From Chiloscyllium plagiosum (lineage: Eukaryota), in contig NC_057724.1 of the NCBI RefSeq assembly GCF_004010195.1, positions 60,773,687 through 60,837,686 of the forward strand: DNA of 64,000 bases, written 5' to 3'. The notes below the pieces were generated by a model. It was not told the origin of the DNA and made no database searches. It was given only the letters and a program-made list of their open reading frames with translations. Below are positions 17,347 to 46,659 of the stretch, piece by piece. Both the position numbers and the translations under genes were made by a program. Every line of letters begins with the position of its first letter. The first letter of the stretch is position 1.

Positions 17347-17449
17347 CTTCACATGTATTGGGGAGTTTCACCCAATCGGAATCATCGTCGCCCCAGACTG
17401 GCCCAGAGAACAGCAAGAGGACTGATATCAGCCGGGTCACCGTCAGCAT
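17347..17449 (-). CDS. CNPY3: CNPY3 coding exon 1 (signal peptide plus DWVKLPNTCE)
   Basis: ATG at 17449; MLTVTRLISVLLLFSGPVWGDDDSDWVKLPNTCE G|gtttgt; resembles the CNPY3 DWVRLPSKCE motif; phase 1. Confidence 0.92.
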
Positions 17450-17559
17450 ATTGTTGTGATCATTAATGTAACAAAACAGAATAGAAAAGTGAAAATTAAA
17501 AAGCTGGTCAGTGGTCTTGTTCAATTGCCTTATCCATAAAGCCCAGGGCTGACTTCACC

Positions 17560-17720
17560 GAGAAATTGACACAGCCAGTTACGTTTTCACGTTGTATCCA
17601 TTTCCTCCTCGCTCCAACCAATCCCCGCGTCCGCCGTGTCCACTCCGACCAATCACGGCCACGCTAACAGAGCACGCGCAGCGCTCAGCTGTTTGTCTGG
17701 TGGGGGGTGGTGAGTAATTG
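17560..17720. promoter_or_regulatory. CNPY3 proximal promoter (CpG-rich, two CCAAT boxes)
   Basis: Local CpG enrichment just upstream of the ATG; CCAAT at 17618-17622 and 17649-17653. Confidence 0.6.
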
Positions 17721-17914
17721 GAAAGATGGAACATGGCAGTGGTGGTCAACGAGCAAAGCCTATCAGTCCTCCTCGTAAAGCTACACGTCCTTGTTTATTT
17801 CACACACCCGTCTCTCACTGCTTTCCTCCTACATTTCGACAGCGTACGATAATGGGCTCTTGTGCTTTAGCCCTGGCAGCTTGGCTAGATTATGATAGAG
17901 GAGCAAATTACTGA

Positions 17915-18520
17915 AAGTGCTGGAAGCTGTATTGAAAACAAAAACGCTGGAGATCACAGGGGGTCAGAGAGCATCCGTGAAGAGAGAACAAGCTAACGTT
18001 TCGAGACTCGATGACTCTTGATCAGAGTTATAATAGATGACAGATAGGTATATAGGATCCCATGCTATAATAACTCAGTTTTGAAGAAGGGTCACTTGAC
18101 CCGAAACATTAATTCTGCTTTCTCTCCACGGATGCTGCCAGACCTGCTGACTTTTTCTAACAATTGGGGTGACATGGTGGCTCAGTGGTTAGCACTGTTG
18201 CCTCACAGCACCAGGGATCCGGGTTTGATTCTAGCCTCGCGCGACTGTGTGGAGTTTGCACGTTCTCCCTGTGTCTGCGTGAGTTTCCTCCAGGTGCTCC
18301 AGTTACCTCCCACAATCCAAAGATGTGCAGGTCAGGTGAATTGGCCATGTTAAATTGCCCATAGTGTTAGGTGAATTAGTCAGAGGAAAATGGCTCCGGG
18401 TGGGTTACTCTTCAGAGGATCGGCGTGGACTGGTTGGGCCGAAGGGCCTGTTTCCATGCTGTAGGGAATCTAATTGCTGTTTTTGTTTTGGATTTCCAGC
18501 ATTCGCAATTCTTTGTTCAT
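17915..18520. mobile_element. Short palindromic PLE-derived element with degenerate hammerhead motifs, interrupted by a SINE
   Basis: Minus motif near 17993-18027 (CUGAUCA-A-GAGUC..GUCUC-GAAACGUU) and plus motif 18081-18110 (UUGAAGA-A-GGGUC-ACUU-GACCC-GAAACAUU). Confidence 0.6.
18167..18471 (+). mobile_element. HE1-type SINE
   Basis: Same head, V-domain and tail as the other copies; short AATT(G) duplication at the flanks. Confidence 0.9.
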
Positions 18521-19979
18521 TCCTTCCCCCACCCCCACCCCCAACACACACACAGACAAGCACTTTCAGAAGGAAAGTAAGCAGAATCTGTGGTCTGTTA
18601 GCAGAATATTAAGGTAACGCGGGCCAGTAATCCAGAGGCCTGGACTAACAGTCTGCAGACATGAGTTCCATATCCCCCACTGGCAGCTTGGAGAATTTAA
18701 ATTCAATTAAATTAATTTGGAACTGAAAGCTGGTCATTCGTAATCCTAACAGATGCTGCCATACCTGTTGAGTTTCCCCAGCAATTTTTGTTTTTGCTTG
18801 TGATTACGAAACGTTAACTCTGCTTTCTAAACTATTCCCTGAAATGGTATAGCAAGACATAACATTAACATGTCTTGCCACCATTTTCTTGAGGACAATT
18901 GAGGATGGAGATATATGCTGGTCTTAGAAGTGATGCACATTTTCATTGCACAAATACAAAGAAAAAGTGCCAGTGACTGCGGGTTAAACAGTTTGGGTGA
19001 TGTGCCTGACATTATTTAGTACCTAACATTGTGTGCAAACTGTGAGTTTTTTAATTCACTAATGGGATATGACTTGGCCTGCACTTATTGCTCACCCTGG
19101 TCACCCTAAGAAGGTGATGCTGAGCTACCTTTTTGAACTGCTGCAAACCATTTGGTGCAGGTACACCCACAAAGGAGGGAGTTCCACGATTTTGACCCAA
19201 CAACAGTGAAGGAATGGCTTCTCAATGTTGAGAGCAAAACATCCAATTTTTCAATCAAGTGTTGAACGCTCAGTTGAGATTCTCACGAGTGAGTGAGAAG
19301 CTTATTGGCCTTCAGTAACATCTCATTATTACTTAATCTTGTCTCATTGATATGCAGTTTCCCATTCCCCCACTCGCTGGATAGAAACTAAATGCTGAGA
19401 ATACTCGATATGAATGTCAGAATGGATATCTAATGACTCCATCTCACTGCTTGGTCCTCTGACCCTCTATCCTAGAAATGCAGTGCCAACATCTCAGGAC
19501 ACACTCCATGCACAGTTACTGAATGCATGTCACATCCACAGACACTGACATTTGACAGATACTAGCCTCACTGCACCCTCATGGCTCATCCCCAGTCCTT
19601 ACAATATGGTTCTGCATTTTAATGTTGCATTTTGGAATGGACCAACACCTTTCGTTGCAATTCTGGTAAAGAACAGTTTGTAAGCAGGTACAGGTCATTT
19701 TATGGTATGGACTAGGCTACATCTCAGGGATCCTTGCCTACTCTCTTAATGCTCAGTCAATTTGTGTCCACTTCGATGCTTCCAGAACAACTCTTTCTTG
19801 ACTATATACCACATGCTGCCACCTCTGGTGCTCTGTCCTCCCAATGGTCCGGACATATGTAAGGTTGCTGATGATGGAGTCTGGAACATTGTAAGGTTTG
19901 ATTCCCTGACTATAACTATTGTTATCTCAGCTGACGTTATAGAATCAGACAGATTGCATGCAATTCTGGTCTCATTTCT

Positions 19980-20472
19980 ATTGGAGTTCAGAAAAGATTT
20001 ACAAGGATGTTGCCAGGGTTGGAGGATTTGAGCTTTATGGAGAGGCTGAATAGGCTGGGGCATCGAAGACTGGGGGTGGATAGGATAAACCTTATAGAGG
20101 TTTATAAAATCATGAAGGGCATGGATAGGATAAATAGACAAACTCTTCTCCCTGGAGTGGGGGAGTCCAGAACTAGAGGACAGAGTTTTAAAGATGAGAA
20201 GGGAAAGACATAAAAGGGACCTAGGAGGAATGTTTTCACACAGAGGGTGGTGCCTGTATGGAATGAGCTGCCAGAGGAAGAGGTACAAACTAGTATAATT
20301 ACAGCATTTAAAAGGCATCTGGATGGGTAAATGAATAGGAAGGGTTTAGAGGGATATGGGACAAGTGCTGGCAAGTGGGACTAGATTGGGTTGGGATATC
20401 CAAGCATGTGGATGGATTGGACCAAAGGGTCTGTTTCTGTGCTGTATATCTCTATGACTCTATGATTCTATG
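19980..20472 (+). mobile_element. CR1 LINE 3' end
   Basis: ORF 20007-20213 (MLPGLEDLS...IEVYKIMKGMDR) and (CTATGACT)n tail. Confidence 0.9.
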
Positions 20473-23379
20473 GTCTTTCACTGAAACATAAACATGCAAT
20501 GCTGCTGAATTGGTTTTAACTATAAAACAGATATTTGTTCTATTAAATAAATAAAAATAAAGTAAAACAAACTGATCTATCTAAATATAACACAGTTTGA
20601 AAGATTTCAGAGCAAAATCTTACCTATTTTCAACACCATGACTCTTCAGTTACACACAATCGAGAAATTTCCCTTTGTTATCAAATCTGTTATTTTGACT
20701 AAACTGTTTTTTCCTCAGTTCTTGTCCTTTGAGTTGTGAAGTCATTTCCTTGAATCCTCACCAACTGAGATCTAAGATTTTCTCAACTTTGAATAACCAA
20801 CGCAGATTTTGAACCAAACACTCCTGGTCTGGAAGTTTCACAAATTACGCACTTTCCCTGAGGTAACTTATTCCCTAATTGCACTGAACAATCTTTTTGA
20901 CTAGGAGAGATTATGTTGGCATTTGATGTCAGTCAGGTCTTCTTTGAATTGTGCAAAAGTTTTCCAATCTCTGAGATTTTGTAAACTAGAATCAGTCCTT
21001 AAATATTCTAAACCCAAAGCAAGCTAATGTCTTTCAATGCTTTCTCTCTCCTGTTGTAGACCTACACAACATAAATAAACTTCCGTTAACTATCCTGGAG
21101 GCACATATTCATTTAAAATCTTGGAAAGATCTATCTTGTTAATTTTTAAATTGCTGTATGAAAATAGACCAACGCTCATGTGCTATTAGTTTAAAATCCA
21201 AACTGTTAAAAGAACGATACAAGTCTCCATAGATCATAATTCATCATCCTCATCACAATATATCAGACTGTTATTTGACTGGATTTCAATTTCATTTTCA
21301 TTTCCTGTCCCTAGGTTGATGCCAGGTTATTTTCCCCAGTTTCATTCCTATCTTTAGGCTATGTAACAGTTTGATACAACTGAGTGGCTTGCTGGACTAT
21401 TTCAGAGTCAACCACAATGCTGTGATCTGGATGGAGTCTGATATAGACAAACCAGGTAAGGAAGGCAGATAACCTTCCATCCAGGTACTTCAGGAACCAG
21501 ATGAGTTTTTTTTCACACTTTACAGTGGTTACATGGTCACCATTAGGCTAGTTATTTAATTTTAGATTTTATTACTCCATATTTCACCAGAAATTCTACA
21601 CCTCATATAATGTCATCTTTGAATGATACAATATTAATATAATGCTCTTTTCTAAACATTATGAATAAATTATGTCTTTGGAAGAAAAAGAAACAGCTTA
21701 GCTGGTTGTGACACAAGCCCTTCCCATCAGATCCTAATTGCCTACTCTGAATCCTACTCCTGATACATGCTGTCCTTGAGACAGTTAAAGTGGCGAAGAG
21801 CCTGTTGCACAACTCCATCTGAAATGTATCTTTGCAAAGCAGACCTGGAAAGATTTGCAGTAGTTTTTATTGCGGTTCATCTCAAGTAAGACTCTGCCCA
21901 ACAGGCTGTCCTCATGGATGTACTCTTAGACAAATGCCATCTGATGCTGGAGGATAAGCAACTCAGTGAAACATTCTCTTTGATCTGCCCAAAACTGGGG
22001 GGGTCTTCCTATACAAATTGTTATCCACAACTGAGTGTTGTAGACTGGTGCATTGCAAGATCCATGAGCACATATTGAAAGACACAATAATGTTTGAATT
22101 AGAGTGGTGCTGGAAAAACAATAATGTTTGGGACAGTTGCTAAGAGTAGATCTATTCTGTTTTGCCACTCAATGAGATCATTGCTGTTCTGCAACCTAAT
22201 TTTTGCACCCGCTTTTGTCTGATCTTCCTTAGTATCTGCTTAAAATAGATAAATGAATCAGATTTCAAATTAATAAATGATCTAGCAACAATTGCCAGTT
22301 GTGAAAGAATTGCTAAATTCTACCATTCTTCGTATGTAGATTTATTACCTAAATTCATGCTTTAGGTATGTCTCCTTATGCTAGACTATCCAACCAACAG
22401 AAATATTTTAAATTTATCTATCTAAACCTTGTAATAGCTTAAAACGCCCATCAAGTTGCCACATACACGTGTAAATTCCAGGAAATATAACCCTAGCTTG
22501 TATAATCTCTCCACATAACTAAACGCTTGACTCCATGCTTTATTCTTATAAATCTACATCTCACTTCATCCAAGGCCAATATATCAGGCTAAATTTTACC
22601 AGAAATTATTTGTCTTTTTGGCAAGTTTCAAGGAGATATGAGCCCTATTATCTTTTTTCTCACAGTATTATCTACAACTCACCTCATTAGCTATGCAACA
22701 CACTCTTATGGCACCCTGCTCTTTCTATCTTCCCTCTCTCCAGAGACAAAAGTACTCCATGACCTCATAGGATTTTTGGTGTCAATGCCACTTTTAAAGC
22801 ACACTCATAAACCAGGCTGACTGCTGCCACCTACAAGTTACCCTTCATCATGAAAGTGGCAGGATTGGAATGAAAAAGGAACATTTCTAAGGGTACAGAG
22901 GTAGTACAACTGACACTTAATTGTAACTAGAACTACACATTCATAAATGTATTTCTATTTTCAAACCAAGTTACATACACTATCTGTCCTTAGTGTCATC
23001 CCATCTTAGAAACCTGTTTAAGACAGTACTACTCTTTCTCTAGTCGCCAGTGTAGCCTAACATTCTTTCATTGTTCAAGGTAGGAGTATGTCATATTCAA
23101 AATCCTTCAAATGGGAACAGGCAAGGACTGCTTGCTTTTCAAGCAGAAAAAACATTACAATAAATGAGCGATCACTGCTCCCAGCTCAAAACTAGAAATG
23201 GTGTCAATTAAATCATGCCTGGATTTTTTGTGCTCTGATGCTACAATGTACTAAGGTGCAGAAGGTAACGTGTTATCTTCTCAATGCCCTCTCGTCATTG
23301 GAAGAGTGCTGCTGCATTTGCAGTTCTAAAGAGTTCGTCAGCATTGCCTCTTTGCCATAACATGCAAGGATGATTTACA

Positions 23380-23845
23380 GGGAGAAAGTGAGGTCTGCAG
23401 ATGCTGGAGATCAGAGTTGAGAGTGTGGCATCCGAGGAGCAGGTGAATCGACATTTCAGGCATAAGCCCTTCATCAGGATGATGTACACTCTGTCTCAAC
23501 TGTACTGCAAGGGCACACACCATCCCTCTACACTCACACCCTGGACTGAGTCAAATATTGGGAACCATCTTCAGCAGACCTATCATCTGTTCTACAATGG
23601 CCCTGGTTGAAGAATGGGTCATGACGAGAATGTGGTGCTGGAAAGACATAGCATGTCAGACAGCATCCAAGGAGCAGGAGAATCGACGTTTCGGGATGAG
23701 GCCCTTCATATTCTCATTCCTGATGAAGGGCCTATGCCCAAAACATTGACTTTCCTGCTCCTCAGATGCTGCCTGACATGCTATGTCTTTCCAGCACCAC
23801 ACTATTGACTCCGATCTCCAGCACCTGCAGTCCTCACTATCTCCT
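23380..23845. mobile_element. Cluster of short PLE-terminal-repeat elements, including a head-to-head palindrome at about 23625-23845
   Basis: GTGGTGCTGGAAAGACATAGCATGTCAG...CTGACATGCTATGTCTTTCCAGCACCAC inverted arms with central hammerhead-like motifs. Confidence 0.75.
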
Positions 23846-24559
23846 CCTTGAAGAATGGGTCGCATTATAAATTGCCTCAACTCTATTTGGGGTTGCATAA
23901 CTCAGTCAACAGTCATAGTTGCAGAGGATAACCCTTTTCTCCCAGTAGCTATCCCTGTAAATAATACAATACTTGACAGCATAGCAGATCATTTCATACC
24001 GTGGAACTCTCACTGATACAGATGTAGTAGTGTGTTTGCTGCTCATGTGAATGGTGCACGTTGAGGTTGATGTAATGTGGTCCTGAAGAGCAACATGACT
24101 GATCGTACCTGACAACTGTGACAGGCTGCCTAGCTTTGGGACTGTGCTAAACATCAAAGCAAGACAGAAGAAATGTGTGCCTTTAAGTTTTGGTTGAGGA
24201 GGCAAAGTGCAGAATGGCAAAAAAGGCAGGGCAAGATAAAGCAGGCAAATGCAGAGAAGCTGTGAGCATTCACATAGATACAAAGTGAATGAGCTCAAGG
24301 GGACTAGGCGAGAAACTCTGACATACATCCTGGTCGAATCAAGAGTGCTGTTGCTGCATTAGAGTGATAGATGGGTGGTGCGCTCTGAAGCATTGAAGTA
24401 CAGAACTGTATTGTAAGTGAGTTGAAGATGTACCATGATGGCACAATAAATCTGGGGCATGTCTAATGCCAACCTCAGATTAGGGATGCAACTAGCTATT
24501 GTCCTTGGAATGTGCCCAGAGACTTTGTGATTGGCTGAAAAATATGGAGGCCCAGAGGG

Positions 24560-24740
24560 ATGGTGTGGTGGCTCAGTGGTTATCACTGCTGCCTCACAGC
24601 TCTGGGGACCTGAGTTCAATTCCAACTTTGGTAGAATGTCTATTTGGAGTTTGCACATTCTCCTTATGTCTGTGTGGATTTTCTCCGGGTGCTCCAGTTA
24701 CCTCCCACAGTTCAAAGATGTGCAGGTTAGGTGGCTAGGT
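24560..24740 (+). mobile_element. HE1-type SINE, 3'-truncated
   Basis: Head and V-domain present, tail missing. Confidence 0.8.
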
Positions 24741-28335: not shown

Positions 28336-28509
28336 TTCAATTCAAATCTCATTCCTTTAAATCATTTAGTTTTCCATTTACCTGTAGTTCCTAAATCATA
28401 ATTTTTTGACTATTATTCTCCACTCTTTGTTTTTTAACAGTCATTTACAGTTACCTGTACCATTGGAGCCCTCACCTTCACTTACTAGAAAGAATACTTA
28501 TTCACAGAA

Positions 28510-31497: not shown

Positions 31498-31525
31498 ATG
31501 ACTAATATAAAAATGGTAGTTATTC

Positions 31526-32457: not shown

Positions 32458-33034
32458 CTTCCAAATAAACCTGTTGGACTATAACCTGGTGTTGTGTGAT
32501 TTTTAACTGAAATCATGGTGTTCCCTCGGTATTGTTTGAGAATATCAGCCTTTATTTTTACAGTGAAGTGAAATCCTTTCGGCAGCAAGTTGCTGTACTC
32601 TGCAATGCGCTGCATGAAATGTTTGACTGAAGTGAATTTGATGGGAACTTTCACAAGAAAATAGGATATATACTTGAAACAGAAATGAGGATGTGGTGGA
32701 TGTGGGCACAGTTACAATGTTTAAAAGACAATTGAATTAAGTACGTGAATAGGAAAAATTTGGAGGGATATGGGCCAGGAGCAGGCAGGTGGCACTAGCT
32801 TAGTTTGGGATTATGATCGATGTTCATTGGTTGGACTGAAGGGTCTGTTTCCGTGGTGTATGACTCTATGAGCAGAGCTATGGGAAAAGATTAGGGTAAT
32901 GGGACTATTAGGTAGCCTCTTCAAAAAGCACCAATTACCATAATGAGCTGAATAGTGACATTCAGTGGTGAGTGACTTCATGATTCTGAGATGTCTGGTA
33001 CAAGGCTGCATTCAGTTATCTTTATCCCCATGCT

Positions 33035-33165
33035 AGGTAAAAACAATGAATGCAGATGCTAGAAACCAGATTCTGGATTAGTGGTGCTGGAAGAGCACAG
33101 CAGTTCAGGCAGCATCCAAGGAGCTTCGAAATCGACGTTTCGGGCAAAAGCCCTTCATCAGGAAG
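33035..33165 (-). mobile_element. Solo PLE terminal repeat with an intact hammerhead motif (33134-33161)
   Basis: Same family as the ends of the 14005-15643 element. Confidence 0.8.
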
Positions 33166-33510
33166 GGCCATGTTGTCTAATCTCTAGTTATCGTCTGGAT
33201 CAATTGCCTTTATGAGGATTGGTGGGGAAGAGAAGTGGAGAAGGAAACAGTAGTTGTGGCTTTGTGTCATATTCAGGTTCTTTTGCAACATACAGAAACG
33301 TCAAACCCGAACACTTGGAAAACACGTGAAACGAAACGGAGTGTAGATTCAAGGCACAGGAAACAGTACATCTGAATAGAAAAAAAAGAGCGAGGGTGGA
33401 GGAAATTGCGGAGACCACAGAAGAGGACGGTTGCAAACAGGTCTGCTGTGAGATGGAAGTAAAAATGCCTCGTGTTTAAGAGTCTGCTGAAGTTTCACAG
33501 TAATCGCAAA

Positions 33511-33613
33511 ATGGCAAGACAGTACTCATTGAAAAGACAAATACTACCACAGCGGATTTACTGGATTTGCCTGATTGTTTTAAACAATGTGGCGCTCAAC
33601 ATAGAGGCAAACG
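33511..33613 (+). CDS. Putative first coding exon of an unidentified secreted or membrane protein (orphan exon)
   Basis: Strong Kozak context (caaaATGG); MARQYSLKRQILPQRIYWICLIVLNNVALNIEAN with a moderately hydrophobic core; ends at a consensus phase-1 donor ACG|GTGAGT in non-repeat sequence. No downstream exon found. Confidence 0.4.
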
Positions 33614-34703
33614 GTGAGTCTTTAACACGATTTCTATTTTGTATTTTAAGATAGCAGGAAGGAAACATTTTGAAGCACGTATTTACCACTACCCCATTCA
33701 GAACAAGACTCTCTGTTTACCTTATTTGAAATACGTAGTTGAAAAATATATTTGTCTTTCATATCACTTAAATTTTGTTTCAATTAAATGAGGGATGTCT
33801 TCAGATGTGGTGTTCCTGTCTCTGAACCAGAAACTCCAGTTCAAGTCCCACTCGAGGATTTGATGGCTAAGTCAGGCATCTAACCAAGCTGAGGACTTGT
33901 AAATCCTGCCAATGCAAGCCAATGGCAAGAGGGGAAGATCTTCCTGGTCAGTGATTTGAGGGAACTGAAATTGAAGCCTCCGTGTCACTATTCCTGTCTC
34001 AGAACAATAACCTGCATGGAAAGGTGCGCGTGGTTGGGCGACTTGGGACGAAGGAAGTGGCATGTTGGCTCAGTGTGGATCAAATTGGTGCCAATAGATG
34101 GTGTCGGTTCTGGCTGGGATGCATTTGAGTCCCGCGCCCTTGACTTATCCATGGTTGATGCTGCGGCACTGTGGGTCAGACCTTCCTTCAGGAAAAGAAT
34201 TAAAGGTGCTAAAAGATTCCTGCCCATAGTTTGATTTTCATTTGAAATCAAAATGCTGATCTGCATCAACAATAGGGTCAAGTCTGTCACATGGAGTAAT
34301 ATTTCAAATCTTCTTTAAATGAACCAGAACAACAGAAAATATTTCTTGTGCTTGTGTGTCTCTCCTCTTATAAATGTTGTATAAAAATGTAATATCTTAT
34401 AAAATCCAAATAGATAATTTGGAATTAGAAGGACCTTTTAAAACCTAAGTTAATCACTGCCTCAAATGCCAAGGAACGAAAAATAATCTTGTACTTACAG
34501 GAAATAATATGGCAGGGTGCAGCCCAGTGATGAGAATGCTTAAGGTATCTAACTGGATGGGAAAATCCCAAACTATATTCAATTGAATAAGTCATTTGAA
34601 CTATTTAATCCAAAAAAGTTGATTGTGCAATTTATTTAGTTTACAGCCTGGACTATTTCTTTATTTGCACTGCAGTAATGTGCAAGGCATTATTTACTGA
34701 TAT

Positions 34704-34921
34704 TGGATCAGTGGTGCTGGAAGAGCACAGCAATTCAGGCAGCATCCGAGGAGCTTCGAAATCGACGTTTCGGGCAAAAGCCCTTCTTTTATTCCTGATG
34801 AAGGGCTTTTGCCCGAAATGTCGATTTCAAAGCTCCTCGGACGCTGCCTGAATTGCTGTGCTCTTCCAGCACCACTGATCCAGAATCTGGTTTCCAGCAT
34901 CTGCAGTCATTGTTTTTACTT
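34704..34921. mobile_element. 218-bp palindromic non-autonomous PLE derivative
   Basis: Inverted arms around hammerhead motifs; 16-bp TSD CATTATTTACTGATAT at 34688-34703 and 34922-34937. Confidence 0.9.
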
Positions 34922-36316
34922 CATTATTTACTGATATCCCTAGTTGGATTGTGGACATGAGAAGTCACCATGTACAGCCATGTGTGGGGCAAACTGATTA
35001 GGGGTAACAAGTTTCCTTTCTTTCAGTAAACTAATTGAAGTTCAACGGATTTATTCTTCCCCACTTTGTGGTAATCACTGGCAACTTTGATAAATTCACT
35101 TTTACAACCTCCACCATAGAAATTGTACTAAATGGATTACTGGCGTATCACCATAAACATTGGACTACTGAATGAACAGGCCAATAATCCGAATTAATCC
35201 TAACAAGTTGAAGGCAATAAATCATGAACTAACGTGTATAGAGAATTATGAAGTTGAACATCGCAGCTGATATTTTATTGTCACTCTGTAATAGTTTTGT
35301 GTGTAATCCACTAGATAGGAATGCAATGCAGCGTGTATTCTATGAAACTGTGTGCTGAATATAAATCTATATTCAACTTAAAGATACTGGGAGTAAACCA
35401 TACAAATCTAACAAGTGCCATCCTGTGCTGAATTAGCTGTTCTTAACTGTAAAGTGAATTGAACCCTGTAACTGTTCCTAAAGTAAAAATGCTGGCAAGT
35501 TAGAATAGACAAGGAGTACAGTGATTTCTGCTTTTTGGTAAAGATTGAAAAACCATTCCTTTTTGAGGGTATAATTGTTAGCTGATCGGAAGACCTTAGG
35601 ATATAATTTAAACTCGTGGAACTAAATTGTTTTAATGTGCTAGTTAGACAAAGAGATCATGCATGACCAGTTGTTATTAAGGCTTAAGAATAGGAGGCTT
35701 GACAAACACAGGAAATATCCTTCAGCTCAAGTTTCCACCAGTTGTTAAATGACACTTTCTTAATGTGAATCACACAACTGAGAACGTTATACTGAATAAG
35801 AAGATTGAAGTTTTATGGGTAAGTGGCCAGCAATTGAGAGGTATGCTTCACTTCTTCATTCTGCAGTCAAATGTTTGATATTTCTAAAGATCAGGGACAA
35901 TATGTAGAAGAGACCAGATTTCTTAAAACAAAATCAAAAATGGCCAGTTGCTTCCAGCATGACCTTGAAAGGCTAAATTATCTCCTTCTGTACCACAATA
36001 TCTCTCTGATTTCATCATTTAACAGCTTGACTGGGCTAACCAGAACTAAAGCCAATTGGTCCAAGATCAATATATCTTTGTCATCCCAGAAAGTTTGCTT
36101 CATTGTTATACCTGAGGCTACAGAAGAGCCTTGTGTACATGAATTAAGACAGAGATTAATTTATTTGTAGGTTGGAATTGACCCATATGTCTCAGAAGAT
36201 GGAGTTGAATATGTGTACTTGTACAGGAATTGCCAAGTTGCCACCACTTTTCAAACACACTAACGAAACCAGACATCCTTGCTACTCCATATTCTCTTCC
36301 AGGTTCAATTAGTATT

Positions 36317-36649
36317 TTTTATTGAATCCCTACAGTGTGGAAACAGGTCATCTGGCCCAATAAGTCCACACCAATCCTCCGAAGAGCATCCCACCCAAAA
36401 CCATTCCCCTACGTTTATCCCTGACTAATGCAGCTAACCTACACATCCCTGGACACTATGGTCAATTTAGCATGGCCAATTCACCCAATTTGCACATTTG
36501 TGGGAGGAAACCGGAGCACCTGAAGGAAACCCACACAGACACAGGAGAATGTGTAAACTCCACACAGACAGTCGCCCGAGGCTGGAATTGAACCCGGGTC
36601 CCTGGCGCTGTGAGGCAGCAGTGCTAACCACTGAGCCACCGTGCCGCCC
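36317..36649 (-). mobile_element. HE1-type SINE
   Basis: Full head, V-domain and tail; 11-bp TSD CAATTAGTATT at 36306-36316 and 36650-36660. Confidence 0.92.
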
Positions 36650-37049
36650 CAATTAGTATTGTGGTATATCAATTTGCTGATTCTTAACTCAGTCTGATTC
36701 TGAGCCAAAATTAAGGCTCGGAGACAATGCAAGCAAGTAAACATCAATTGGTACGGTGCTTGTTGCACAGCTGTTTTCATTACACTTTACATTTATTATA
36801 AAATTCAATTTAATATTCTAACACAAACTTCTACAATTAAACTTACATTCTAGTCAATGTAAGACATTATTCTGATAACATAAGACCATAAGATGTAGGA
36901 GCAGAATTCGACCATCTAGCCCATCGAGTCTGTTCCGCCATTCGATCATGCCTGATATGTTACTCAACCCCATTCTCCTGCCTTCCCCCTGTAACCCTTG
37001 ATCCCTATACTAATCAAGAGCCTATCTCTGTCTTAAAGATATTCAACAA

Positions 37050-40000
37050 CAGTTTTCAACTACCTCAACTACCTCGGAACCTCAGCATATCAACTATGGT
37101 CGTAAGTGGTGAAGTCTTGGGTAATCAACCCTTACCCTGATGCATTGCCCTCCATGCCTTGACCATACTAATGACAATGGGGTTCCAGCAGTGGAACTAT
37201 AACTATCCTCATCTTATCCATGAACAACAGGTTAATAAGGAGGCACTTTGCCTTGGAGGCCTCGCCATCCAGCCATATTGATCCTGGATGTTTACCTATC
37301 CAATCGCACACAAAGGATAGCAGGGAACTGAATTGATACCTCCTGAGGTCTGAGAAATCAACTCCTCCCCATCCTGAGGCTACTGCAATTTAGTAAGATT
37401 GATGAGGGGCCACCCATGATACCAGTCGAAGGAATTAAACCAACCCATAAGTTTCTGCAGCGTTGATCTGAGAAACATATAGGGAGCATACGCATGGGAT
37501 AAAGCAAACGAGGAAGGACATTCATTTTGATGAGAGCTATTCGGCCCAACCATGAAATTGGAAGAGCCTCCCATCTCTGGAGATCTCTCCTAATATTGTC
37601 GAGCAAGTGAGTAAAGTTAATCGAAATAACCGATCAAACATGGGGGTAATAAAAATGCCTAGGTATCGGAACGCTGCCCGTGACCACTTAAAAAGGAACC
37701 TAGGGCCACCTTCAGCCTCTGGCACTTCCTTGAAGTTCCCCAAAGGCATAGCTTCCGATTTTACAAAGTCGATCTTATATCCTGAAATAGCCCCAAATGA
37801 ATTGACACACTGTATCAAAAAGGGGTACGGAGGTCATCAGGTTTGGTAAAAACAGAAGGATATCATCCGCATCAGTGTAATCTTGTGTACCCCCAGTCCC
37901 ACTTCCAGAGCGGTTATGTGGATGTTCTGACGAATGGCCTCTGCCAGCAGCTCTACCACCAACGTAAACAATAACGATGAAAGGGGGCAGCCTTGAAGAC
38001 TACCCCTACCAATCTGAAAGTTCCGAGACTTAACCCCGTTGATGATGACCACGGCCAGAGGGTGATGATATAAAACCTCCACCCACCTAGCAAAGACCCC
38101 ATCCAACCCAAACCGCTCTTAGACACAAAAGAGATATGGCCATTCCACCTGGTCAAATGCTTTCTCTGCATCTAAGGAAATCACCAACCCCTGAATCGAT
38201 CGTTGCTGACATACTTGGACCATATTCAGCAACCTTCTAATATTATTAGAAGACCTACGGCCCCTTATAAAGCCTGTCTGGTCTCCTTCAATAATACCGG
38301 GCAACACCTTCTCCAATTTCAGCACCAGGATCTTAGACAGAATCTTGAAATCTGAATTTAATAGAGAGATGGTCCTGTATGAATCACAATCCTCAGGAAC
38401 CTTTCCCTTCTTAAGAATGAGGGAAATATTAGCTTCTCTCGAAGATGGTGATAAGCATTCATGCATATAAGAGTGATTGTACATCTCCAACAATCAGCCT
38501 TGACAAAATCCCCATAAACTCCTGAAAACTCACCTCGGAGACCATCAGGGCCAGGCACATTCCCACTCTGAAGTTGCCTAGCTGCCTCCTGTATTTCCTG
38601 AACTGTCAAGGGGGCATTAAGAAGAAAGTCCAGTTCCAAGGTTACCCCAGGAAGTCCAGGTTCTTAAAAAAGGCTTCCATTTTAGCCCACCTGTCCTCGC
38701 AACTCTCAGACCGATACAATTCAGAGAAAAACTCCAAAAAACCTCATTAATCCTTTAGGCATTGTATGTAAGGACCCTGGCGTAGTCACCCTAGGCCACA
38801 CGGTGGCTCAGTGGTTAGTACTGCTGCCTTTCAGCACCAGGGACCCGGGTTCAATTCCCACCTCAGGCAACTGTCTGTGTGGAGTTTGCACATTCTCCCA
38901 GTGTCTGCGTGGTTTTCCTCCGGGTGCTCCGGTTTCCTCCCACAATCCAAAGATGTGCAGGCCAGGTGAATTGGCCATGCTAAAATTGCTCATAGTGTTA
39001 GGTGCAGGGGTAAATGTAGGGAATGGGTCTGGGTGGGTTGCTCTTCGAAGGGTCGACGTGGATTTGTTGGGCCGAAGGGCCTGTTTCCACACTGTAGGGA
39101 ATCTAATCTAATAAAAATATGCTGCCTTGGCGGCTTTCAACCATGTCTCAAGTAGACACTGCTGTTCCCACTTCTGTCGTTTCCAGCTAGCTGAATAGGA
39201 ATTAGCTAATCCCTGAACAAAGGCCTTAGTGGTCTCCCATAGCATACACAGACTACTAGCTGTGCTTGAGTTGATAAGTCAAGAATTCCTGAAATTCATT
39301 CAAAATGTATTCCACAAATTTGGAATCCTTAAGGAGAAAAGCATCCAGACACCAGTGCCGCAAACTTAGCCCCTCACTTTTGGCCTTAACCTCCAAATAT
39401 ACCGCCGTGTGATCAGAGATAGCTGTGTTCTCAACCCATAATCTAATCCAAAAGGGTCAAAGGAGCCAGAAAAAAGATCAATCCTCACGTGACATTTATG
39501 TGGGTTTGAAAAAAAGGTGAAGTCCCTGCCAGTAGGGTGAAGACATCTCCAAATGTCCACCAGCCCCAACTCTCACATAAGTCAGCCACCTGATTGGCCT
39601 ACGAAGAAATAGTTGGGGTCCCACTAATCATCCCATCTACTGTCTGATCCAAAGGGCAATTGAAATCTCCCCCCTATAATAATGTGCCGTGTTCCAAAGG
39701 CACTCAACTGAGAAAAGGCACTAGCCAAAAATTTGCGGGAATGCTCCTGAGGACAGTAGACATTGAAAATCCATATTCCTTCCCCTGTATCTGAGCCTGA
39801 AACATCACAAACCACTCTTGCTCATCTTTCACCTGCTCTAATAACGTGAACGGAAGATTTTTCTGGATAAGTACCGCCACTTCCCTACTTTTAGTGGTAA
39901 AGGATGAAAAGAATACCTTCAGGTGTTCCCCATTATCAAGATGGTTTTCCTGCAATAGGGCAATATCAACCCTTGCCCTCTTAAGGCTAGAAAGCACTTA

Positions 40001-41480
40001 TTTCCTTTTAACAGGCGAATGACTTCCCTTGATGTTCCAGGTACACCATTTAACAAGATACTTAGCCATATCCCCTTTCAGAGACCCTTGAACCTCCAGG
40101 AGGGAGAACGCTGCTTACAATGCACTGAGCACAAGTAAATAAAGATTCAGAGTCGCAGAATTGTGTACATAAAAATACTGTATCATAACTACAAACAACT
40201 ATTGCTACCAAAAAACTACAAAGAAGCCAACTATAAAACCTTGAACAGGAGACTCTCCATCCTTGCCACAGGGGGCACTCACCCGACCCAACCCCTCCTT
40301 CACAGCTCCTTCAAGCCCGGACTACGCCCCAGCCTTAGGCAAAAAAAACTAAACAAGGAGATGATCCTAAGTGAGCAAAGCAAGAAGACAAAGTCAGGAT
40401 AAGCACTCCGCCCATCCCCAGCTCTATTCCAGTTATAAAAATATAATAGCAACAACATATTCCAAGTTTTTTTAATTATTAGGGAAAGAGAAGGGGAAAA
40501 AAGGGGGCAGAAGGGAAAACACAGAAAAAAGGAAAAGATGATGAATATTAACTGTATTCTTCAGAGCAGTTGGTCTATTTTAAAGAGTCTACAAAATTCT
40601 AAGCTTTATCAGATGAGTCAAAAGTATAAACTGAGTCCTCGTGGCTGAAACGGAGCACTGTGGGGTACTTCATGGAGTACTGGATGCCCAAGTTCCTCAG
40701 CCTCTTTTTAGCTTCATCGAATTACAGCTGCTGAGAAATCCTGGAAAAACATGATTTTTGACCCCTTGTGCAGCAGTGCCTGTGGGTCTTTCCCCAGTGA
40801 TCTGGAGGCTTCTATCATTTTTTGCTCGTCCTTGTATGTATGGAAGTGCTCTAGGACCAGGTAGGGGCATTGTACCGACCCAGACCCGTGCACTGTGAAC
40901 TGATAAGTTCTTTCAATCTGCAGTCGACTAGACTTTATTTGAAGGTCCAGGAACTGCTGCACAAAGAAGCTGACTGGCTGCCCACCTTGCTCACCTTCCG
41001 GGAGCTTGACAATCTGAAAATTCATCCTTCAACCTCGATTTACGAGGTTGTCATCCTGGTCTCATAAGGCCCGCACCTCCCGCTCCAGTACCTGGATCTG
41101 ACTGGATGAGGACTCGATTGCCACTTCCAAGGCTTTGGTTCAACCCTCCATCTCCTCACCGCAGCCCTGGAAGCCCCGTTCATGCTTCTGCAGCATGGAC
41201 ACAATGGGTTGAACGTGGGCACGGATCTCCACAATCGCAGCCCCACCCTTCGAGGTAGGTCTTGCCACTGTCGGTGCCAATTCCTGAAAGTCTGTCAGGT
41301 CCCCGGGGGTTCGGGAGAGGCTGATGCTGCTGCCTCTGGTGTGCCTGGTGCTACAGGGGAGTGTCCTCCTTGCTGCTGTTGCTCTCTCCTTTTTCTTTTG
41401 GTATCCTTCCCACTCCCAAATATTAACGAATACGTGTTCTGTAAGGTTTTAAACTAATACTTTCTCCACATAAGTTAGCC
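37050..41480 (-). mobile_element. L1-clade LINE (ORF1 plus EN/RT remnants), disrupted
   Basis: ORF1-like KLPEGEQG...IMFFQDFSAAV; EN-like VDIALLQENHL, DIWRCLHPTGRDFTFFS; RT-like YRTISLLNSDFKILSKIL, LDAEKAFDQVEW, QGCPLSSLLF, RIALIKMNVLPRLLY. Confidence 0.9.
38795..39112 (+). mobile_element. HE1-type SINE inserted in the L1
   Basis: Complete SINE with ATCTA tail, antisense to the surrounding L1. Confidence 0.9.
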
Positions 41481-41569
41481 AGGGATGGCAACAAACACCA
41501 ATGTCCCTTGGCTGATAGGTGGAGCCTCCAAGGTAGCAGAATCACTGCCAGCTTGCCGAGAACAACTTC

Positions 41570-42787
41570 AGTTTTTTTGAAGAAGTAACGAAGAGGATTG
41601 ATGAGGGCAGACCAGCGGACAAGATCTATATGGACTTCAGTATGGCGTTCAATAAAGCTCCTTGTGCTAGAATTGTTCGCAAAGTTGGATCATATGGAAT
41701 ACAGGGAGAACTAGGCATTTGGATACAGAACCGACGCAAAGGTAGAAGACAGAGGGTGGTGGTGGAGGATTGCTTTTCAGACTGGAGGCCTGTGAACAGT
41801 GGTATGCCACTAGGATCAGTGCTAGGTCCACTGCTTTTTGTAATTTATACAAACGATTGGGATGTGAACATATGAGATATGGTTAGTAAGTCTGTAAATG
41901 ACACGAAAGTTGGAAGTGCAGCGAAGGAGGTTACTTCAGATACAACGGGACCTTGATTAGATGGGCCAGTGGGACAAGGAGTAGCAGATGGAGTTTAATT
42001 TAGATAAATGTGCTGCATTTTGGAAAGGCAAATCAGAGCAGGACTTATACACTTAATAGCAAGGTCTTGTGGACTGTTGCTGAACAAATTGACCTTGGAG
42101 TACAGGCTCATAGTTCCTTGAAAGTGGAGTTGTAGGTAGATAGGATAGTGAAGAAGGTGATTGGTATGCTTACCTTTATTGGTCAGTGCGCTGAGTATAG
42201 GAGTAGTGAAGTCATGTTGCAGCTGTATAGATCATTGGTTAAGCCACTAGTGGAATGCTGCATGTAATTCTGGTCTCCCTGCTATAGGAAGGGTGTTGTG
42301 AAACTTGAAAGGGTTCATAATAGATTTACAAGGATGTTGTCAGGGTTAAAGGGTTTGAGCTAGAGGGAAAGGCTGCATAGACTGGGGTTATTTTCCCCGA
42401 GGCTGAGAGGTGACCTTATTGAAGTTTAAAAAATTGTGAGGGGCAGAGATAAGGTAAATAGACAAGATTTTTTCTTTAGGCTGGTGGAGTCCAAAGCTAG
42501 AGGGCATAGGTTTAAGGTGAGCGGGGAAAGATTTAAAAGGGACCTAATGGGTAACTTTTTCATGTAGAGGATGGTGCATGGATGAAATGAGCTGCCAGAG
42601 GAAGTGATGAAGGCTGGTATCATTACAACATTTAAAAGGCACCTTGATGGGTGTATGAATAGGAAGGGTTTAGAGGGATATGGAACAAATGTTGTCAAAT
42701 GGGACTAGAATAATTTAGGATATCTGGTCAACATCGACAAGTTGAACCGAAGTGTCTGTTTCCATTCTGTATAGCTCTATGACTCTA
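41570..42787 (+). mobile_element. CR1 LINE 3' part
   Basis: MDFSMAFNK..., [12 protein letters not shown] remnants and CR1 tail. Confidence 0.9.
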
Positions 42788-43324
42788 GGTTTGTGAGACA
42801 CAACCTCCCCTCTACAAAGCCATGCTGCCTGTAGCTGGAAATCCATGTTCTCCAAATCTGAATAAATCCCGTTACTCAGAACCTTCTCCAATAATTTCCA
42901 TACCATTGACACAAGGCTCAGTGGTCTGTAATTTCCCAGATTATCCCCATTGCTCTATTTAAACAAGGGACCAACATTGGCTATTCTCCAGTCCTCTGGG
43001 ACCTCGCCTGCGACTAAACAGGGTACAGGATAAAGAGGTCATTCCAAATACTTGATTTGGATGAACTATTTCCTTCACTCTTAACATCTTTCCTTTTATC
43101 CGATTTCTAAAAGTACACATTTACAGAGATCTCTCATTGAATTGCAAACTCTCAATCACAATGTATTCTGGCACCCAGGTTTATTTGTCAGTAATATTTT
43201 TGCTCTCTACATGTCTGGACCAAACAGCCAGTTTGACAAACAACTTCAGCCTGGAATAATCTTACCTAGCATAGGTAAGAACAGGGATCCAGTATACTTG
43301 CTTAATTTACTACATTAATCTCAC

Positions 43325-43435
43325 CTGTTTTTAAGTGATACTGTTTTCCCAGAATCCAAGTAGGCTCTTCGGTGTCTGGAAAATCTTCAAGCAAATCAGA
43401 GAAGCCAGGTATTTGATTTTCACACTTGGCCAGAA
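43325..43435 (-). CDS. ATG4A: ATG4A (cysteine protease) coding exon 2
   Basis: cag|TT CTG GCC...AAA ACA G|gtgaga = (V)LAKCENQIPGFSDLLEDFPDTEEPTWILGKQYHLKT, similar to human ATG4A VLSKYEDQITIFTDYLEEYPDTDELVWILGKQHLLKT; 111 nt, phase 1/1; head-to-head with PSMD10 as in mammals. Confidence 0.9.
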
Positions 43436-43769
43436 CTGTTGCAATATAAAAGAGATAGCATAGTAAAGACAGCATAGAAAACAACAAAAATACATTTCTG
43501 AACATTCTCGTTTAACAAATCAGGATGTTTTTAAAATGTTGGCATCGCAGGTGACAACAGCAGGCTCAAAAGGCCAAATTGTCTTAAGCTTTCAGGATCA
43601 TCAATAATCTTTAGGGATGAGAACCTGGTTCTTTGCCTATCTCATGAGTGACTTAAGGTCCACACCAATGTCATTGACTTGTGACTATTCTACTAAGTTC
43701 CCAAGCAAGCTAATCAGTTATATCAAACTGATGTCATTTTCTTAAAAACTAAAGATGGGCGACATCACT

Positions 43770-44110
43770 GTGGGCGGCACGGTGGCACAGTGGTTAGCAC
43801 TGCTGCCTCACAGCGCCTGAGACCCGGGTTCACTTCCCGCCTCAGGCGACTGACTGTGTGGAGTTTGCACGTTCTCCCCATGTCTGCGTGGGTTTCCTCC
43901 GGGTGCTCCGGTTTCCTCCCACAGTCACAAAGATGTGCAGGGTCAGGTGAATTGGCCATGCTAAATTGCCCGTAGTGTTAGGTAACGGGTAAATGTAGGG
44001 GTATGGGTGGGTTTCGCTTCGGCGGGTCGGTGTGGACTTGTTGGGCCGAAGGGCCTGTTTCCACACTGTAATGTAATCTAATCTAATGTAATCAAATCTA
44101 ATCTAATCTA
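43770..44110 (+). mobile_element. Young HE1-type SINE in ATG4A intron 1
   Basis: CpGs intact, long (AATCT)n tail, ATCACT duplication at 43764-43769 and 44111-44116. Confidence 0.92.
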
Positions 44111-44644
44111 ATCACTACGTTCCAAGAATCAATGTTAAGATAAAAACTCTACCAGGCTGGACAGAAAGAGAAGTAGTTGTGGAAAATTAAATTTTTTGTT
44201 ACTTGCATTTCCAAATGAAAAGTCTTGCTTTAGTGGCAACATATTAAACTAGTAAGGAGATTATGTGATCAAGCCACACTCTAAAGACTTCAGCACATCA
44301 TTTAAGTTGACACTTTGTTGCAGTAATGAGGAAGACCTACACTGCTACTGGTGACATGCTGCCTTTTTCAACAAGCTCTCTGAGGTAAATACAAATATAA
44401 TTGTATACCACTATTTGAAGAATTACAACAGTCTTGTAATTGGAGCAGCAGAACTAGCTCATAAGTTCAAATGGCTTAATCTTGTTCCTACGTTCCTATT
44501 GCCAGCCTAGTTGGCTACAGAAGTTCCGACTGCAACATCTTCCTTTGTCCTCACTCATGATTCACATCCATGCAATTTTTTACATTAATCATTGAACAGT
44601 AATTAACAATGTGGAAAACTAGACTGGCCTCCTACCTCGGAGTT

Positions 44645-45590
44645 CAGAGTTGAAGAGTGTGGTGCTGGAAAAGCACAGCCAGTGAGGCAGCATCCAAGGA
44701 GCAGGAAAATCAATGCTTTGAGCGTAAGCGCTTCATCAAGAATGATGGGGCAGACCAAGGGGACTGAGAGATAAATGGAAGGGGGGGTGGGGCGGGGATA
44801 GATGGCAATGGGATAGGGAGCTGAAGGCAAGGGTGAAGATGATAGAACAGAAAGGAGGGTAGAGCAGAGATGGACAGGTAGGACAGTTCAAAAGGGCATG
44901 TCGAGTTGGCAGATTGGAGGGAGGGGAAATGAGGAAACTAGTGAAATCCACATTGATTCCGTGTGGTTGGAGGATCCCAAGGCAGAGGATGAGACGCTCT
45001 TCCTCCAGGCATTGGATGGCTAGAGTTTGGTGGTATAAGCGACCCAGGACCTGCTACTGCTACTGTGTCCATTGCTCTCAATGTGGTCTCCCCTACATTG
45101 GGGAGACAGGACGCCAACTAGCAGAATATTTCAGAGAACATCTCTGGGACACACGCACTAAACAACTCCATCACCCTGTGGGATTGGGAGTTAAAACATT
45201 CGGCCGCAGAGCCTCCTTCACACTAAATTCTAGCCATCTTGGGACCCTCCAACCACATGGAATCAATGCGGATTTCATCAGTTTCCCCATTTCCCAGATC
45301 CAACCTTTCAACTCGGCCACCCTCTTGAACTGTCCTATCTGTCCATTATCCTTCCCACCTATCCGCCCCACCCTCCTCTGCCACCAATCACCTTCACCCC
45401 TAAATTCATATACCTATCGCATTCCCATTTAACTTACCCCTCCAGCCCCACACCTCTCCAATTTATCTCTCAGACCCCTTTGGCCACCTCCTCATTCCTG
45501 ATGAAGAGCTAATGCTCAAAATGTCAACTGTCCTGCTCCTCAGATGCTGCCTGACCAGCTGTGCTTTTCCAGCACCACACTCTTCGCTTC
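44645..45590. mobile_element. Older Neptune-type PLE remnant with inverted ends
   Basis: CVHCSQCGLPYIGETGRQLAEYFREHL GIY-YIG remnant; decayed hammerhead motifs near 44710-44740 (-) and 45497-45526 (+). Confidence 0.8.
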
Positions 45591-46648
45591 TGGTTTCCTA
45601 CCTCTTCATCAAGGGTAGCACAACAACTGCAGCATTGTCCTGGCAGAGATCAGCTGGCTCACTAGTGGAATTTGAGAGTTTGTTAGTTCACAAATCATAA
45701 AAATTGTTAATCACAAAGTCATCAGGGTTCAACTTGGTTCAAATTGTGTTTTTTTCTTGTTCCAGATTCAGCATGTAACATATCTATTTCTGTAGATTCC
45801 TTGTCGACCTGCTGTGTTTACTTTATCACTGTAAACATACATCAAGATATTTTCTACTAAATAAATGTTTCAAAAAAAAACTCACCACTCAGAGTTGCAA
45901 CACACCACAGACACATTCACCAGTGCATGTCCTAGCATTTTTGTTTAAACCCTGACAAGTTTACACTGAACAGGTTTTGATTCGGTAAACATTGGCAAGA
46001 ACGTGGCACTGGGACAGCTGTGGTCAATCCTCACAAGCTGTCAAAAGGGTCAACTCAAGGCACCAAGAATCAACATAGGATGTCATTCCTATTTAGATCC
46101 AAGTCACTTTATTTTAAGACAGGGTTTCATGTCATTGTGTAACGGGTAGTCAACAAGCTTTCATTAACTTGACATCACGAATGAACATCTTACGAGCTTC
46201 GCCTAACTTAAACAAACTATACATTTAAATGTATACTTGACCAAACAAAAAGTTGAGCAGGCGCCAAGCATTGATAAGAAGGAACTCCTTTGAACGTTTT
46301 AATAAGTAACAGTAACAAATAATTCGACATCAGCTAAATTCCAAGCCCACGGTGCTTCTTTCAGTTTCTGAACAGGTAATAGCGTAAATAACGAATTATA
46401 AGATTCAAACAAATGCCAGCAGCAATTAAACTACAAATTGATACCATCCCCCACAACACTAATTGTTACAATATTTATTATAGCCTCGAAACAACCATAA
46501 ATGCAGTTACACTCACAGCTTTTACCCAACCACCGACCACTCTGTTAACTAGCACTGAATCAACTTACAAACGACGCTTAACGAAGGGAAGGCTGAGATA
46601 GTTTTGGGAATGCATCTATTAGTTTTGTTCCAACAGCTAAGACGTTAC

Positions 46649-46658
46649 CTGCGTCCAT
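46649..46658 (-). CDS. ATG4A: ATG4A coding exon 1 (10-nt ATG GAC GCA G)
   Basis: agaATGGACGCAG|gtaacg at the CpG island edge; gives MDA(V) in frame with exon 2. Confidence 0.8.
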
Positions 46659-46659
46659 T

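What the first reader, a model, noticed from the sequence alone, without database searches (positions are those of the whole stretch)
17347..46658. ATG4A stops after exon 2 and is followed on the same strand by CNPY3; an in-frame ATG4A-CNPY3 splice is possible
Seen: ATG4A exons 1-2 look intact, but reading by eye I found no exon for RLWFTYR, the catalytic GWGCMLRCGQM or later motifs in the 43 kb downstream, which instead holds multi-exon CNPY3. ATG4A exon 2 ends in phase 1 and CNPY3 exon 2 starts in phase 1, so splicing 43325 to 7683 gives in-frame ...[15 protein letters not shown], a CNPY3 lacking its signal peptide. Known: PSMD10-ATG4A are neighbours on human X while CNPY3 is on chromosome 6. 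Options: same-strand nested gene in a giant intron, a lineage-specific rearrangement or partial duplicate, or an assembly misjoin.
Basis: partly seen in the sequence, partly recalled or inferred. Interest (0 to 1): 0.7.

Follow-up and report, generated by a model that had tools for sequence, protein, structure and literature searches.

The report
Hidden assembly misjoin splits shark ATG4A
The shark autophagy gene ATG4A is complete, with its 'missing' exons 97 kb away on the other strand, and its apparent run-on into CNPY3 is most likely an assembly error, a wrong join hidden inside a jumping-gene copy, so this is likely ordinary.

Summary
The in-window facts hold, but the fusion is most likely not real. 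ATG4A exons 3-13 lie intact on the + strand, 97-140 kb beyond exon 2 and outside the window. Two neighbours are also split. PSMD10 exons 4-5 sit upstream of exons 1-3, and an IL2RG-like exon 1 (33511-33613) is cut off from its other exons by the ATG4A/PSMD10 block. One re-ordering of four blocks mends all three genes: IL2RG-like, CNPY3, PSMD10, ATG4A. Two split transposons confirm two of the three joins by their target-site duplications (15 and 16 bp). The break is an N-free join at 37074/37073 inside a LINE; an unplaced scaffold holds the missing 379 bases that lead on to ATG4A exon 3. CNPY3 shares ATG4A's contig in 12 of 12 other sharks and rays, so no translocation is needed. Best reading: mis-scaffolding with a sealed gap (0.82). 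Rival: a real, collapsed 110-kb tandem duplication in the sequenced animal (0.13), which would make the fusion possible. Laid contigs could not decide between them. The scan noted similar mis-scaffolded genes elsewhere in this genome, none at this locus.

The parts
46649..46679 (-). ATG4A coding exon 1 (31 nt, phase 1); head to head with PSMD10
   Evidence: exons 1-3 translate to the first 71 residues of shark ATG4A P0122 exactly
43325..43435 (-). ATG4A exon 2 (111 nt, ends phase 1). Exons 3-13 lie outside the window at window-relative 140145-183048 on the + strand (G000:C15:60913831-60956734)
   Evidence: single copy in the assembly apart from a C2 retrocopy
37074..41563 (-). 5' 4.5 kb of a LINE (L1/Tx1-like by my recall of its layout) in ATG4A intron 2, cut off at 37074; its 3' end lies at window-relative 135504-136390 (+)
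   Evidence: RVT_1 here and zf-RVT (below its cut-off) in the distant 3' piece; 39 of 39 other scored copies stop matching at or before this point
41564..41578 (-). 15-bp target-site duplication of the LINE; its twin is at window-relative 136383-136397
41579..42787 (-). Older CR1-like repeat that hosts the LINE; it resumes beyond the LINE's 3' end at window-relative 136392 onward
   Evidence: 7 of 8 other copies that reach this edge resume 8-11 bases further on
37073..37074 (.). Hidden N-free junction between blocks S1 and S2 (LINE body joined to a CR1-like 3' piece); about 2 shared bases and a short 7-9 base repeat
   Evidence: the junction 18-mer occurs once in the genome
36880..37073 (-). 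3' end of a CR1-like repeat that ends block S1; it belongs to IL2RG-like intron 1
   Evidence: contigs of X1 (36629-36947) and X11 (36619-36929) tie its 3' end to S1
33511..33613 (+). Coding exon 1 (signal peptide) of an IL2RG-like gene; exons 2-8 lie at window-relative 92448-128187 (+)
   Evidence: P0121, 33 of 34 residues identical; a 1097-nt contig of run X15 (RNA by guess) matches 33417-33613 and leaves the stretch at the donor
17347..17449 (-). CNPY3 exon 1 with its own ATG and signal peptide
7560..7683 (-). CNPY3 exon 2 (phase-1 acceptor at 7683)
4072..4168 (-). CNPY3 exon 3
   Evidence: read from the sequence and motif hit
677..799 (-). CNPY3 exon 4; exons 5-6 lie just left of the window at window-relative -5125 to -6034
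47393..47506 (+). PSMD10 coding exon 1 (residues 1-38 of PDB 1tr4_A)
59716..59814 (+). PSMD10 exon 2 (residues 39-71)
63680..63826 (+). PSMD10 exon 3 (residues 73-120 matched); exons 4-5 lie upstream of exon 1, at window-relative -29246 and -23242 (+)
   Evidence: exon 5 matches residues 177-225; exon 4 is an ankyrin exon assigned by its phases and position, PSMD10 was not among the 60 rows shown

Best explanation
ATG4A, PSMD10 and an IL2RG-like gene are each complete but split across four assembly blocks, and the ATG4A-CNPY3 neighbourhood in this window is most likely a mis-scaffolding artefact whose gap was sealed without Ns. Blocks in window-relative coordinates: S1 -35600 to 37073, S2 37074 to 74689, S3 75190 to 135003, S4 from 135504. 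Shown: the ancestral order is rev(S3), rev(S1), rev(S2), S4, that is IL2RG-like (-), CNPY3 (+), PSMD10 (-), ATG4A (+), with ATG4A intron 2 about 11.3 kb long and holding one whole LINE. Inferred: a long-range scaffolding step flipped S1 and S2 in place, both of which end in repeats. A later step that writes 500-N gaps could not open that join and placed S3 behind it. In the animal ATG4A exon 2 would splice to its own exon 3, and CNPY3 would lie tail to tail with PSMD10, upstream of ATG4A, where no ATG4A-to-CNPY3 splice is possible.
For: (1) All 13 ATG4A exons are present once; exons 3-13 are colinear on the + strand, and exons 1-3 give the exact 71-residue start of P0122. (2) Three genes each demand one join: rev(S2) to S4, S2 to S1, S1 to S3. 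Together these form one linear path, and in the re-ordered region ATG4A, CNPY3 and IL2RG-like exons are colinear (PSMD10 order). (3) The LINE is split between 37074 and 135504, with a 15-bp target-site duplication and a host CR1 that resumes in register in 7 of 8 comparison copies. (4) Unplaced scaffold G000:C97488 carries a 515-bp, 99.2% copy of 37588-37074 plus the missing 379 bases. With them the LINE aligns as one piece across both joins in 16 of 18 other copies. (5) S2's right edge and S1's left edge are two halves of one insertion with a 16-bp duplication; the other 25 gap edges tested share at most 10 bases. (6) CNPY3 and ATG4A share a contig in 12 of 12 other sharks and rays, with consecutive accession numbers in 6 of 12; one GenBank series runs ATG4A GCC22161, CNPY3 GCC22163, IL2RG-like GCC22164. 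(7) The assembly is heavily edited: 101,977 contigs, 13 N runs in 404 kb, three of exactly 500 N. C97488 and its four numbered neighbours are all exactly 21,000 bases. Another gap nearby is flanked by a 369-bp, 96.7% overlap of the kind gap fillers leave.
Against: The S1/S2 junction has no N and only about 2 shared bases plus a short 7-9 base repeat, which is what real end-joining scars look like and what a plain k-mer assembler does not make. It joins the end of the S2+S1 block to its own start, exactly the junction of a tandem duplication. I found no piece that overlaps S1's right end and leads to S3 (40 of 6020 candidates scored), so that join rests on exon order alone. The assembly pipeline is unknown, so the gap-filling step is a guess.
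Confidence: 0.82

Rival explanations
1. The junction is real: the sequenced animal carries a tandem duplication of about 110 kb (S2+S1), with breakpoints in the LINE of ATG4A intron 2 and in IL2RG-like intron 1, and the assembler collapsed it into a circularly permuted scaffold. All genes keep one intact copy; PSMD10 and CNPY3 gain a second, and a spare ATG4A promoter with exons 1-2 would sit upstream of the extra CNPY3.
For: One event gives exactly this junction. It is N-free, with micro-homology and a short repeat. The S1+S2 scaffold starts and ends in the same insertion, as a scaffolder would leave a cycle. The alternative path to exon 3 exists beside it with 4 differences in 515 bp, which could be the other haplotype.
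Against: No second copy of S1 or S2 sequence in the assembly, though collapse predicts that too. The 515-bp overlap resembles a gap-filler extension seen at a nearby gap. The region has many other assembly seams, and S3 is misplaced whichever reading holds. By my own estimate, local scaffolding errors are far commoner in such assemblies than private 100-kb duplications.
Confidence: 0.13
2. The assembled order is a real, fixed lineage-specific rearrangement that broke ATG4A, PSMD10 and IL2RG-like and left an ATG4A-CNPY3 fusion locus.
For: Only the order in this assembly and the phase match.
Against: It needs at least three breaks, each inside an intron, two of them at 500-N gaps. All exons are intact and near-identical to relatives. 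The assembly itself holds the bridge to exon 3. A contig of run X15 leaves IL2RG-like exon 1 at its donor with 900 further bases.
Confidence: 0.03
3. CNPY3 is a same-strand nested gene inside a giant ATG4A intron 2, with ATG4A resuming left of the window.
For: None beyond the view from inside the window.
Against: ATG4A exons 3-13 are to the right and on the opposite strand; none lies in the 140 kb to the left. Flipping S1+S2 as one block would nest CNPY3 but leaves PSMD10, IL2RG-like and both split transposons broken.
Confidence: 0.01

Closest known systems
Shark and ray ATG4A (P0003 XP_060688441.1, P0122 GCC22161.1/XP_072451547.1, P0004; Pfam PF03416 Peptidase_C54)
   Same: Same 403-residue protein, 13 exons; exon 2 identical, catalytic Cys exon and the YLDPH exon present.
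   Different: Only the placing of exons 1-2 against 3-13 in this assembly.
Human PSMD10-ATG4A head-to-head pair on Xq22
   Same: PSMD10 and ATG4A start about 0.7 kb apart on opposite strands (46679 and 47393).
   Different: In sharks and rays CNPY3 and an IL2RG-like gene lie next to the pair; human CNPY3 is on chromosome 6 (recalled).
Read-through (conjoined-gene) transcripts that skip the downstream gene's first exon and splice to its exon 2 (recalled)
   Same: The proposed splice has that shape and is in frame.
   Different: It needs the two genes on one strand in tandem in real DNA; in the reconstructed order CNPY3 is upstream of ATG4A with PSMD10 between them.
Local scaffold mis-ordering in repeat-rich short-read assemblies; collapsed tandem duplications (recalled)
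   Same: Blocks end in repeats, exons are scrambled in whole blocks, round-length debris scaffolds exist.
   Different: One join here carries no N, which is why it is invisible in the window and why a real duplication stays open.

Membership tests
ATG4A (Peptidase C54) | Full set of coding exons with catalytic Cys and Asp/His motifs | tested here: met
   13 exons; GWGCMLRCGQM exon at window-relative 151120 and YLDPH exon at 170904
ATG4A (Peptidase C54) | Orthologue of ATG4A rather than ATG4B, C or D | tested here: met
   Near-identical to proteins named ATG4A; three other multi-exon PF03416 loci exist on C8, C11 and C13 (their names not tested)
Gene fusion or read-through transcript | Compatible splice phases | tested here: met
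   Phase 1 donor at 43325, phase 1 acceptor at 7683; about a one-in-three chance event
Gene fusion or read-through transcript | Both genes in tandem on one strand in real DNA | tested here: inconclusive
   Not so in the ancestral order; the junction in the sequenced animal could not be tested
Gene fusion or read-through transcript | RNA reads joining ATG4A exon 2 to CNPY3 exon 2 | not tested
   No run was laid on 43325 or 7683
Same-strand nested gene | Host gene resumes beyond the nested gene on the same strand | tested here: not met
   Exons 3-13 on the other strand and other side
Lineage-specific translocation of CNPY3 | CNPY3 unlinked from ATG4A in relatives | tested here: not met
Single non-LTR retrotransposon insertion split by the assembly | RT, C-terminal zinc motif, poly-A tail and target-site duplication across the two pieces; colinear with intact copies | tested here: met
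   the label L1/Tx1-like is from recall
Assembly misjoin | Junction absent from the animal's reads | not testable with these tools
   Only contigs of other samples could be laid, and repeats swamped the tables
Collapsed tandem duplication | End-to-start junction of one block | tested here: met
   S1 right end joined to S2 left end, the two ends of block S2+S1
Collapsed tandem duplication | Raised read depth over the block | not testable with these tools
   Contig depth is no copy number and no raw DNA reads were listed

The most novel reading that the evidence does not exclude
The sequenced shark carries a real 110-kb tandem duplication that doubles PSMD10 and CNPY3 and puts a spare ATG4A promoter and exons 1-2 in front of the extra CNPY3, giving an in-frame chimeric protein of about 285 residues: 47 from ATG4A, then CNPY3 without its signal peptide, a cytosolic form of an ER chaperone for Toll-like receptors. 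A new fusion gene caught at birth.
Probability: 0.07. Interest if true: 0.45.

Novelty: not a real feature. Interest (0 to 1): 0.1.

Why it matters
If the best reading holds, the value is practical. Gene models for ATG4A and PSMD10 made on this assembly would be truncated, and an N-free stretch is not proof of true contiguity here. Split transposons with target-site duplications, plus unplaced debris scaffolds, can locate and mend such joins without reads. A small by-product: CNPY3 is a neighbour of PSMD10-ATG4A and IL2RG-like across sharks and rays, unlike in humans. If the duplication is real and spliced, it would be a young fusion gene in one animal, of moderate interest.

Tried and rejected
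Reads: one search listed no RNA holder on record and no raw DNA reads. laid contigs of X1, X5, X15 and X11 on 33000-38780. Repeats swamped the tables (326,900 pieces, 963 joints and 2876 loose ends not shown) and no listed piece bridges 37074; this is no evidence either way. X1 and X5 share about ten differences from the window in 33.1-36.3 kb, so they are unlikely to be the sequenced animal. No run was laid on ATG4A exon 2 or CNPY3 exon 2.

A piece linking S1's right end to S3 was sought and not found: (40 of 6020 candidates scored), and the first 10 kb of four neighbouring 21,000-base scaffolds. C97488:1-5108 is a repeat piece and a GC-rich minisatellite with no match of 93% or more in the 404 kb; I treat it as a wrong link.

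My first guess for the exon at 33511, VSIG1, was dropped: no Ig-domain motif hit, and the protein search gave IL2RG-like. The idea that the CR1-like piece simply inserted into the LINE was rejected, because the LINE does not resume after it and the piece is tied to S1 in two organisms. A collagen IV motif scan found nothing. One search did not show PSMD10 among its 60 rows. The first exon-join check was off by one base and was redone.

Papers: three searches gave no paper on an ATG4A-CNPY3 fusion or on this gene order. I saw search listings, plus keyword passages of PMC9465101 and PMC6936713, which did not bear on the locus; the second mentions two zebrafish il2rg genes. No supplements were read. 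Entries labelled Chiloscyllium plagiosum were left out of the 12-species count because their exons match this region almost letter for letter and so are not independent.
Full report
Coordinates are window-relative (w = G000:C15 position minus 60773686), so values below 1 or above 64000 lie beside the window. The window is G000:C15:60773687-60837686 in a 3.56-Gb assembly of 101,977 contigs. Its nearest named relatives are carpet sharks.

Observation. ATG4A exon 1 (46679-46649) and exon 2 (43435-43325) are on the - strand with good splice sites; together they are 142 nt and end in phase 1. CNPY3 is on the same strand: exon 1 at 17449-17347 with its own ATG and signal peptide, exon 2 from 7683 in phase 1, exons 3-4 at 4168-4072 and 799-677, exons 5-6 at -5125 to -6034. 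No later ATG4A exon lies in the window. The phase match is about a one-in-three event and says little.

Where the rest of ATG4A is. A Pfam search of the genome found four multi-exon ATG4 loci and one retrocopy; one set of exons lies on C15 just right of the window, on the + strand. tblastn with full shark ATG4A (P0003, P0004, P0122) maps exons 3-13 in order from 140145 to 183048. Exons 1-3 translate to the first 71 residues of P0122 exactly. Exon 2 occurs once in the assembly, apart from an 86% match in the C2 retrocopy. ATG4A is therefore complete, but its two parts are 97 kb apart and face opposite ways.

Two neighbours are split too. PSMD10 exons 1-3 lie at 47393, 59716 and 63680 (+) and match residues 1-38, 39-71 and 73-120 of PDB 1tr4_A; exon 5 (residues 177-225) lies at -23242 and exon 4 at -29246, both upstream of exon 1. 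The signal-peptide exon at 33511-33613 (+) is exon 1 of an IL2RG-like gene (P0121); its exons 2-8 lie at 92448-128187 (+), beyond the ATG4A/PSMD10 block. A 1097-nt contig of run X15 (RNA by the tool's guess) matches 33417-33613 without a difference and carries 900 further bases that are not in the stretch, as a spliced transcript would.

One order mends all. Gaps of exactly 500 N stand at -36100, 74690 and 135004. With one more break inside the window they define S1 (-35600 to 37073), S2 (37074 to 74689), S3 (75190 to 135003) and S4 (from 135504). PSMD10 needs S2 before S1, IL2RG-like needs S1 before S3, ATG4A needs reversed S2 before S4. These give one linear path: rev(S3), rev(S1), rev(S2), S4. 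In that order the exons of ATG4A, CNPY3 and IL2RG-like are colinear with relatives' proteins, and the genes run IL2RG-like (-), CNPY3 (+), PSMD10 (-), ATG4A (+).

The break, to the base. A LINE runs down the - strand from 41563 (RVT_1). Searching with 37500-36850, 39 of 39 other scored copies (40 scored of 7975 candidates, one being the window) stop matching at or shortly before 37074. Its 3' end, with a zinc motif (zf-RVT, E 0.0008, below cut-off) and a poly-A tail, begins at the first base of S4. A 15-bp direct repeat flanks the two outer ends, and the older CR1-like repeat that hosts the LINE resumes in register in 7 of 8 comparison copies. The unplaced scaffold G000:C97488 ends with a 515-bp, 99.2% copy of 37588-37074 followed by 379 more LINE bases. 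With them the element aligns as one piece over both joins in 16 of 18 other copies; one crosses the first join only and one neither. ATG4A intron 2 then measures about 11.3 kb. Likewise S2's right edge and S1's left edge are halves of one insertion with a 16-bp direct repeat, against at most 10 shared bases for the other 25 gap edges tested. The S1-to-S3 join rests on exon order only.

Relatives. Contig length and accession order are indirect signs of linkage, and one label was left out as not independent. CNPY3 beside this block is thus old in cartilaginous fishes and needs no recent move.

What remains open. The junction at 37074/37073 has no N, about two shared bases and a short repeat, and occurs once in the genome. 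It joins the end of block S2+S1 to its start. Two processes give that. First, scaffolding that flipped S1 and S2 in place, followed by gap filling. In favour: the 515-bp overlap looks like a filler's extension, as does a 369-bp, 96.7% overlap around a gap at 103338; C97488 and four neighbours are all exactly 21,000 bases, a sign of cutting at fixed bins; there are 13 N runs in 404 kb. Second, a real 110-kb tandem duplication collapsed by the assembler. In favour: the clean junction, and a scaffold that starts and ends in one insertion. Laid contigs of four runs could not decide. I weigh them 0.82 to 0.13, mostly on my own estimate of how common each is. Only under the second could ATG4A exon 2 splice to CNPY3 exon 2, across 35.6 kb, giving about 285 residues with no signal peptide and no protease domain; no RNA was tested for it.

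Earlier notes and print. After my own reading was fixed, the scan's index showed nothing at this place or for these genes and two unreviewed reports of mis-scaffolded genes elsewhere in this genome; I did not check them. Three paper searches found no report of this fusion or gene order (listings and keyword passages only). Human gene positions, the L1/Tx1 and CR1 labels and the behaviour of gap fillers are from recall.

Verdict. Interest 0.1.

Noticed in passing
G000:C15:60667200-60681474 (window-relative -106483 to -92239, +): A second IL2RG-like gene about 185 kb from the first (exons 2-5 seen, 65-94% identical to P0121/P0159); a tandem pair of common gamma-chain genes. Its last exons were not mapped.
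   Followed up: partly
L037:6522-5579 (G000:C2, about 90.114 Mb, -): Old processed ATG4A pseudogene: part of exon 2 runs straight into exon 8 and on to the 3' UTR (66-86% identity), with exons 3-7 largely missing. It shows exon 2 and later exons once stood in one mRNA.
   Followed up: partly
window 51173-53222 (+): CR1-like copy with two N-free internal deletions (about 140 and 210 bases against other copies) at 51837 and 52528, leaving three pieces of about 700 bases; real deletions or further sealed gaps.
   Followed up: partly
window-relative 102970-104040 (L022): 369-bp direct repeat at 96.7% on both sides of a 310-N gap; likely two alleles extended past each other.
   Followed up: partly
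window 38782-39113 (-): A SINE sits inside the LINE, and about 200 LINE bases are missing beside it against the C18 copy (L061).
   Followed up: no
window 46679-47393: ATG4A and PSMD10 start codons are about 0.7 kb apart head to head, a likely shared promoter.
   Followed up: no
window-relative -38831 to -36101 (L036): A 2.7-kb diverged minisatellite ends the block left of S1 at a 500-N gap.
   Followed up: no
window 14000-15640 (-): A repeat insertion with inverted ends, of the same family as the one split between S2 and S1; short hairpin forms stand at 34704-34882 and elsewhere.
   Followed up: no
CNPY3 exon 6, window-relative -5786 to -6034 (-): Lysine-rich tail ending in PDEL rather than the usual KDEL/HDEL-type signal; the same in P0145.
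   Followed up: no
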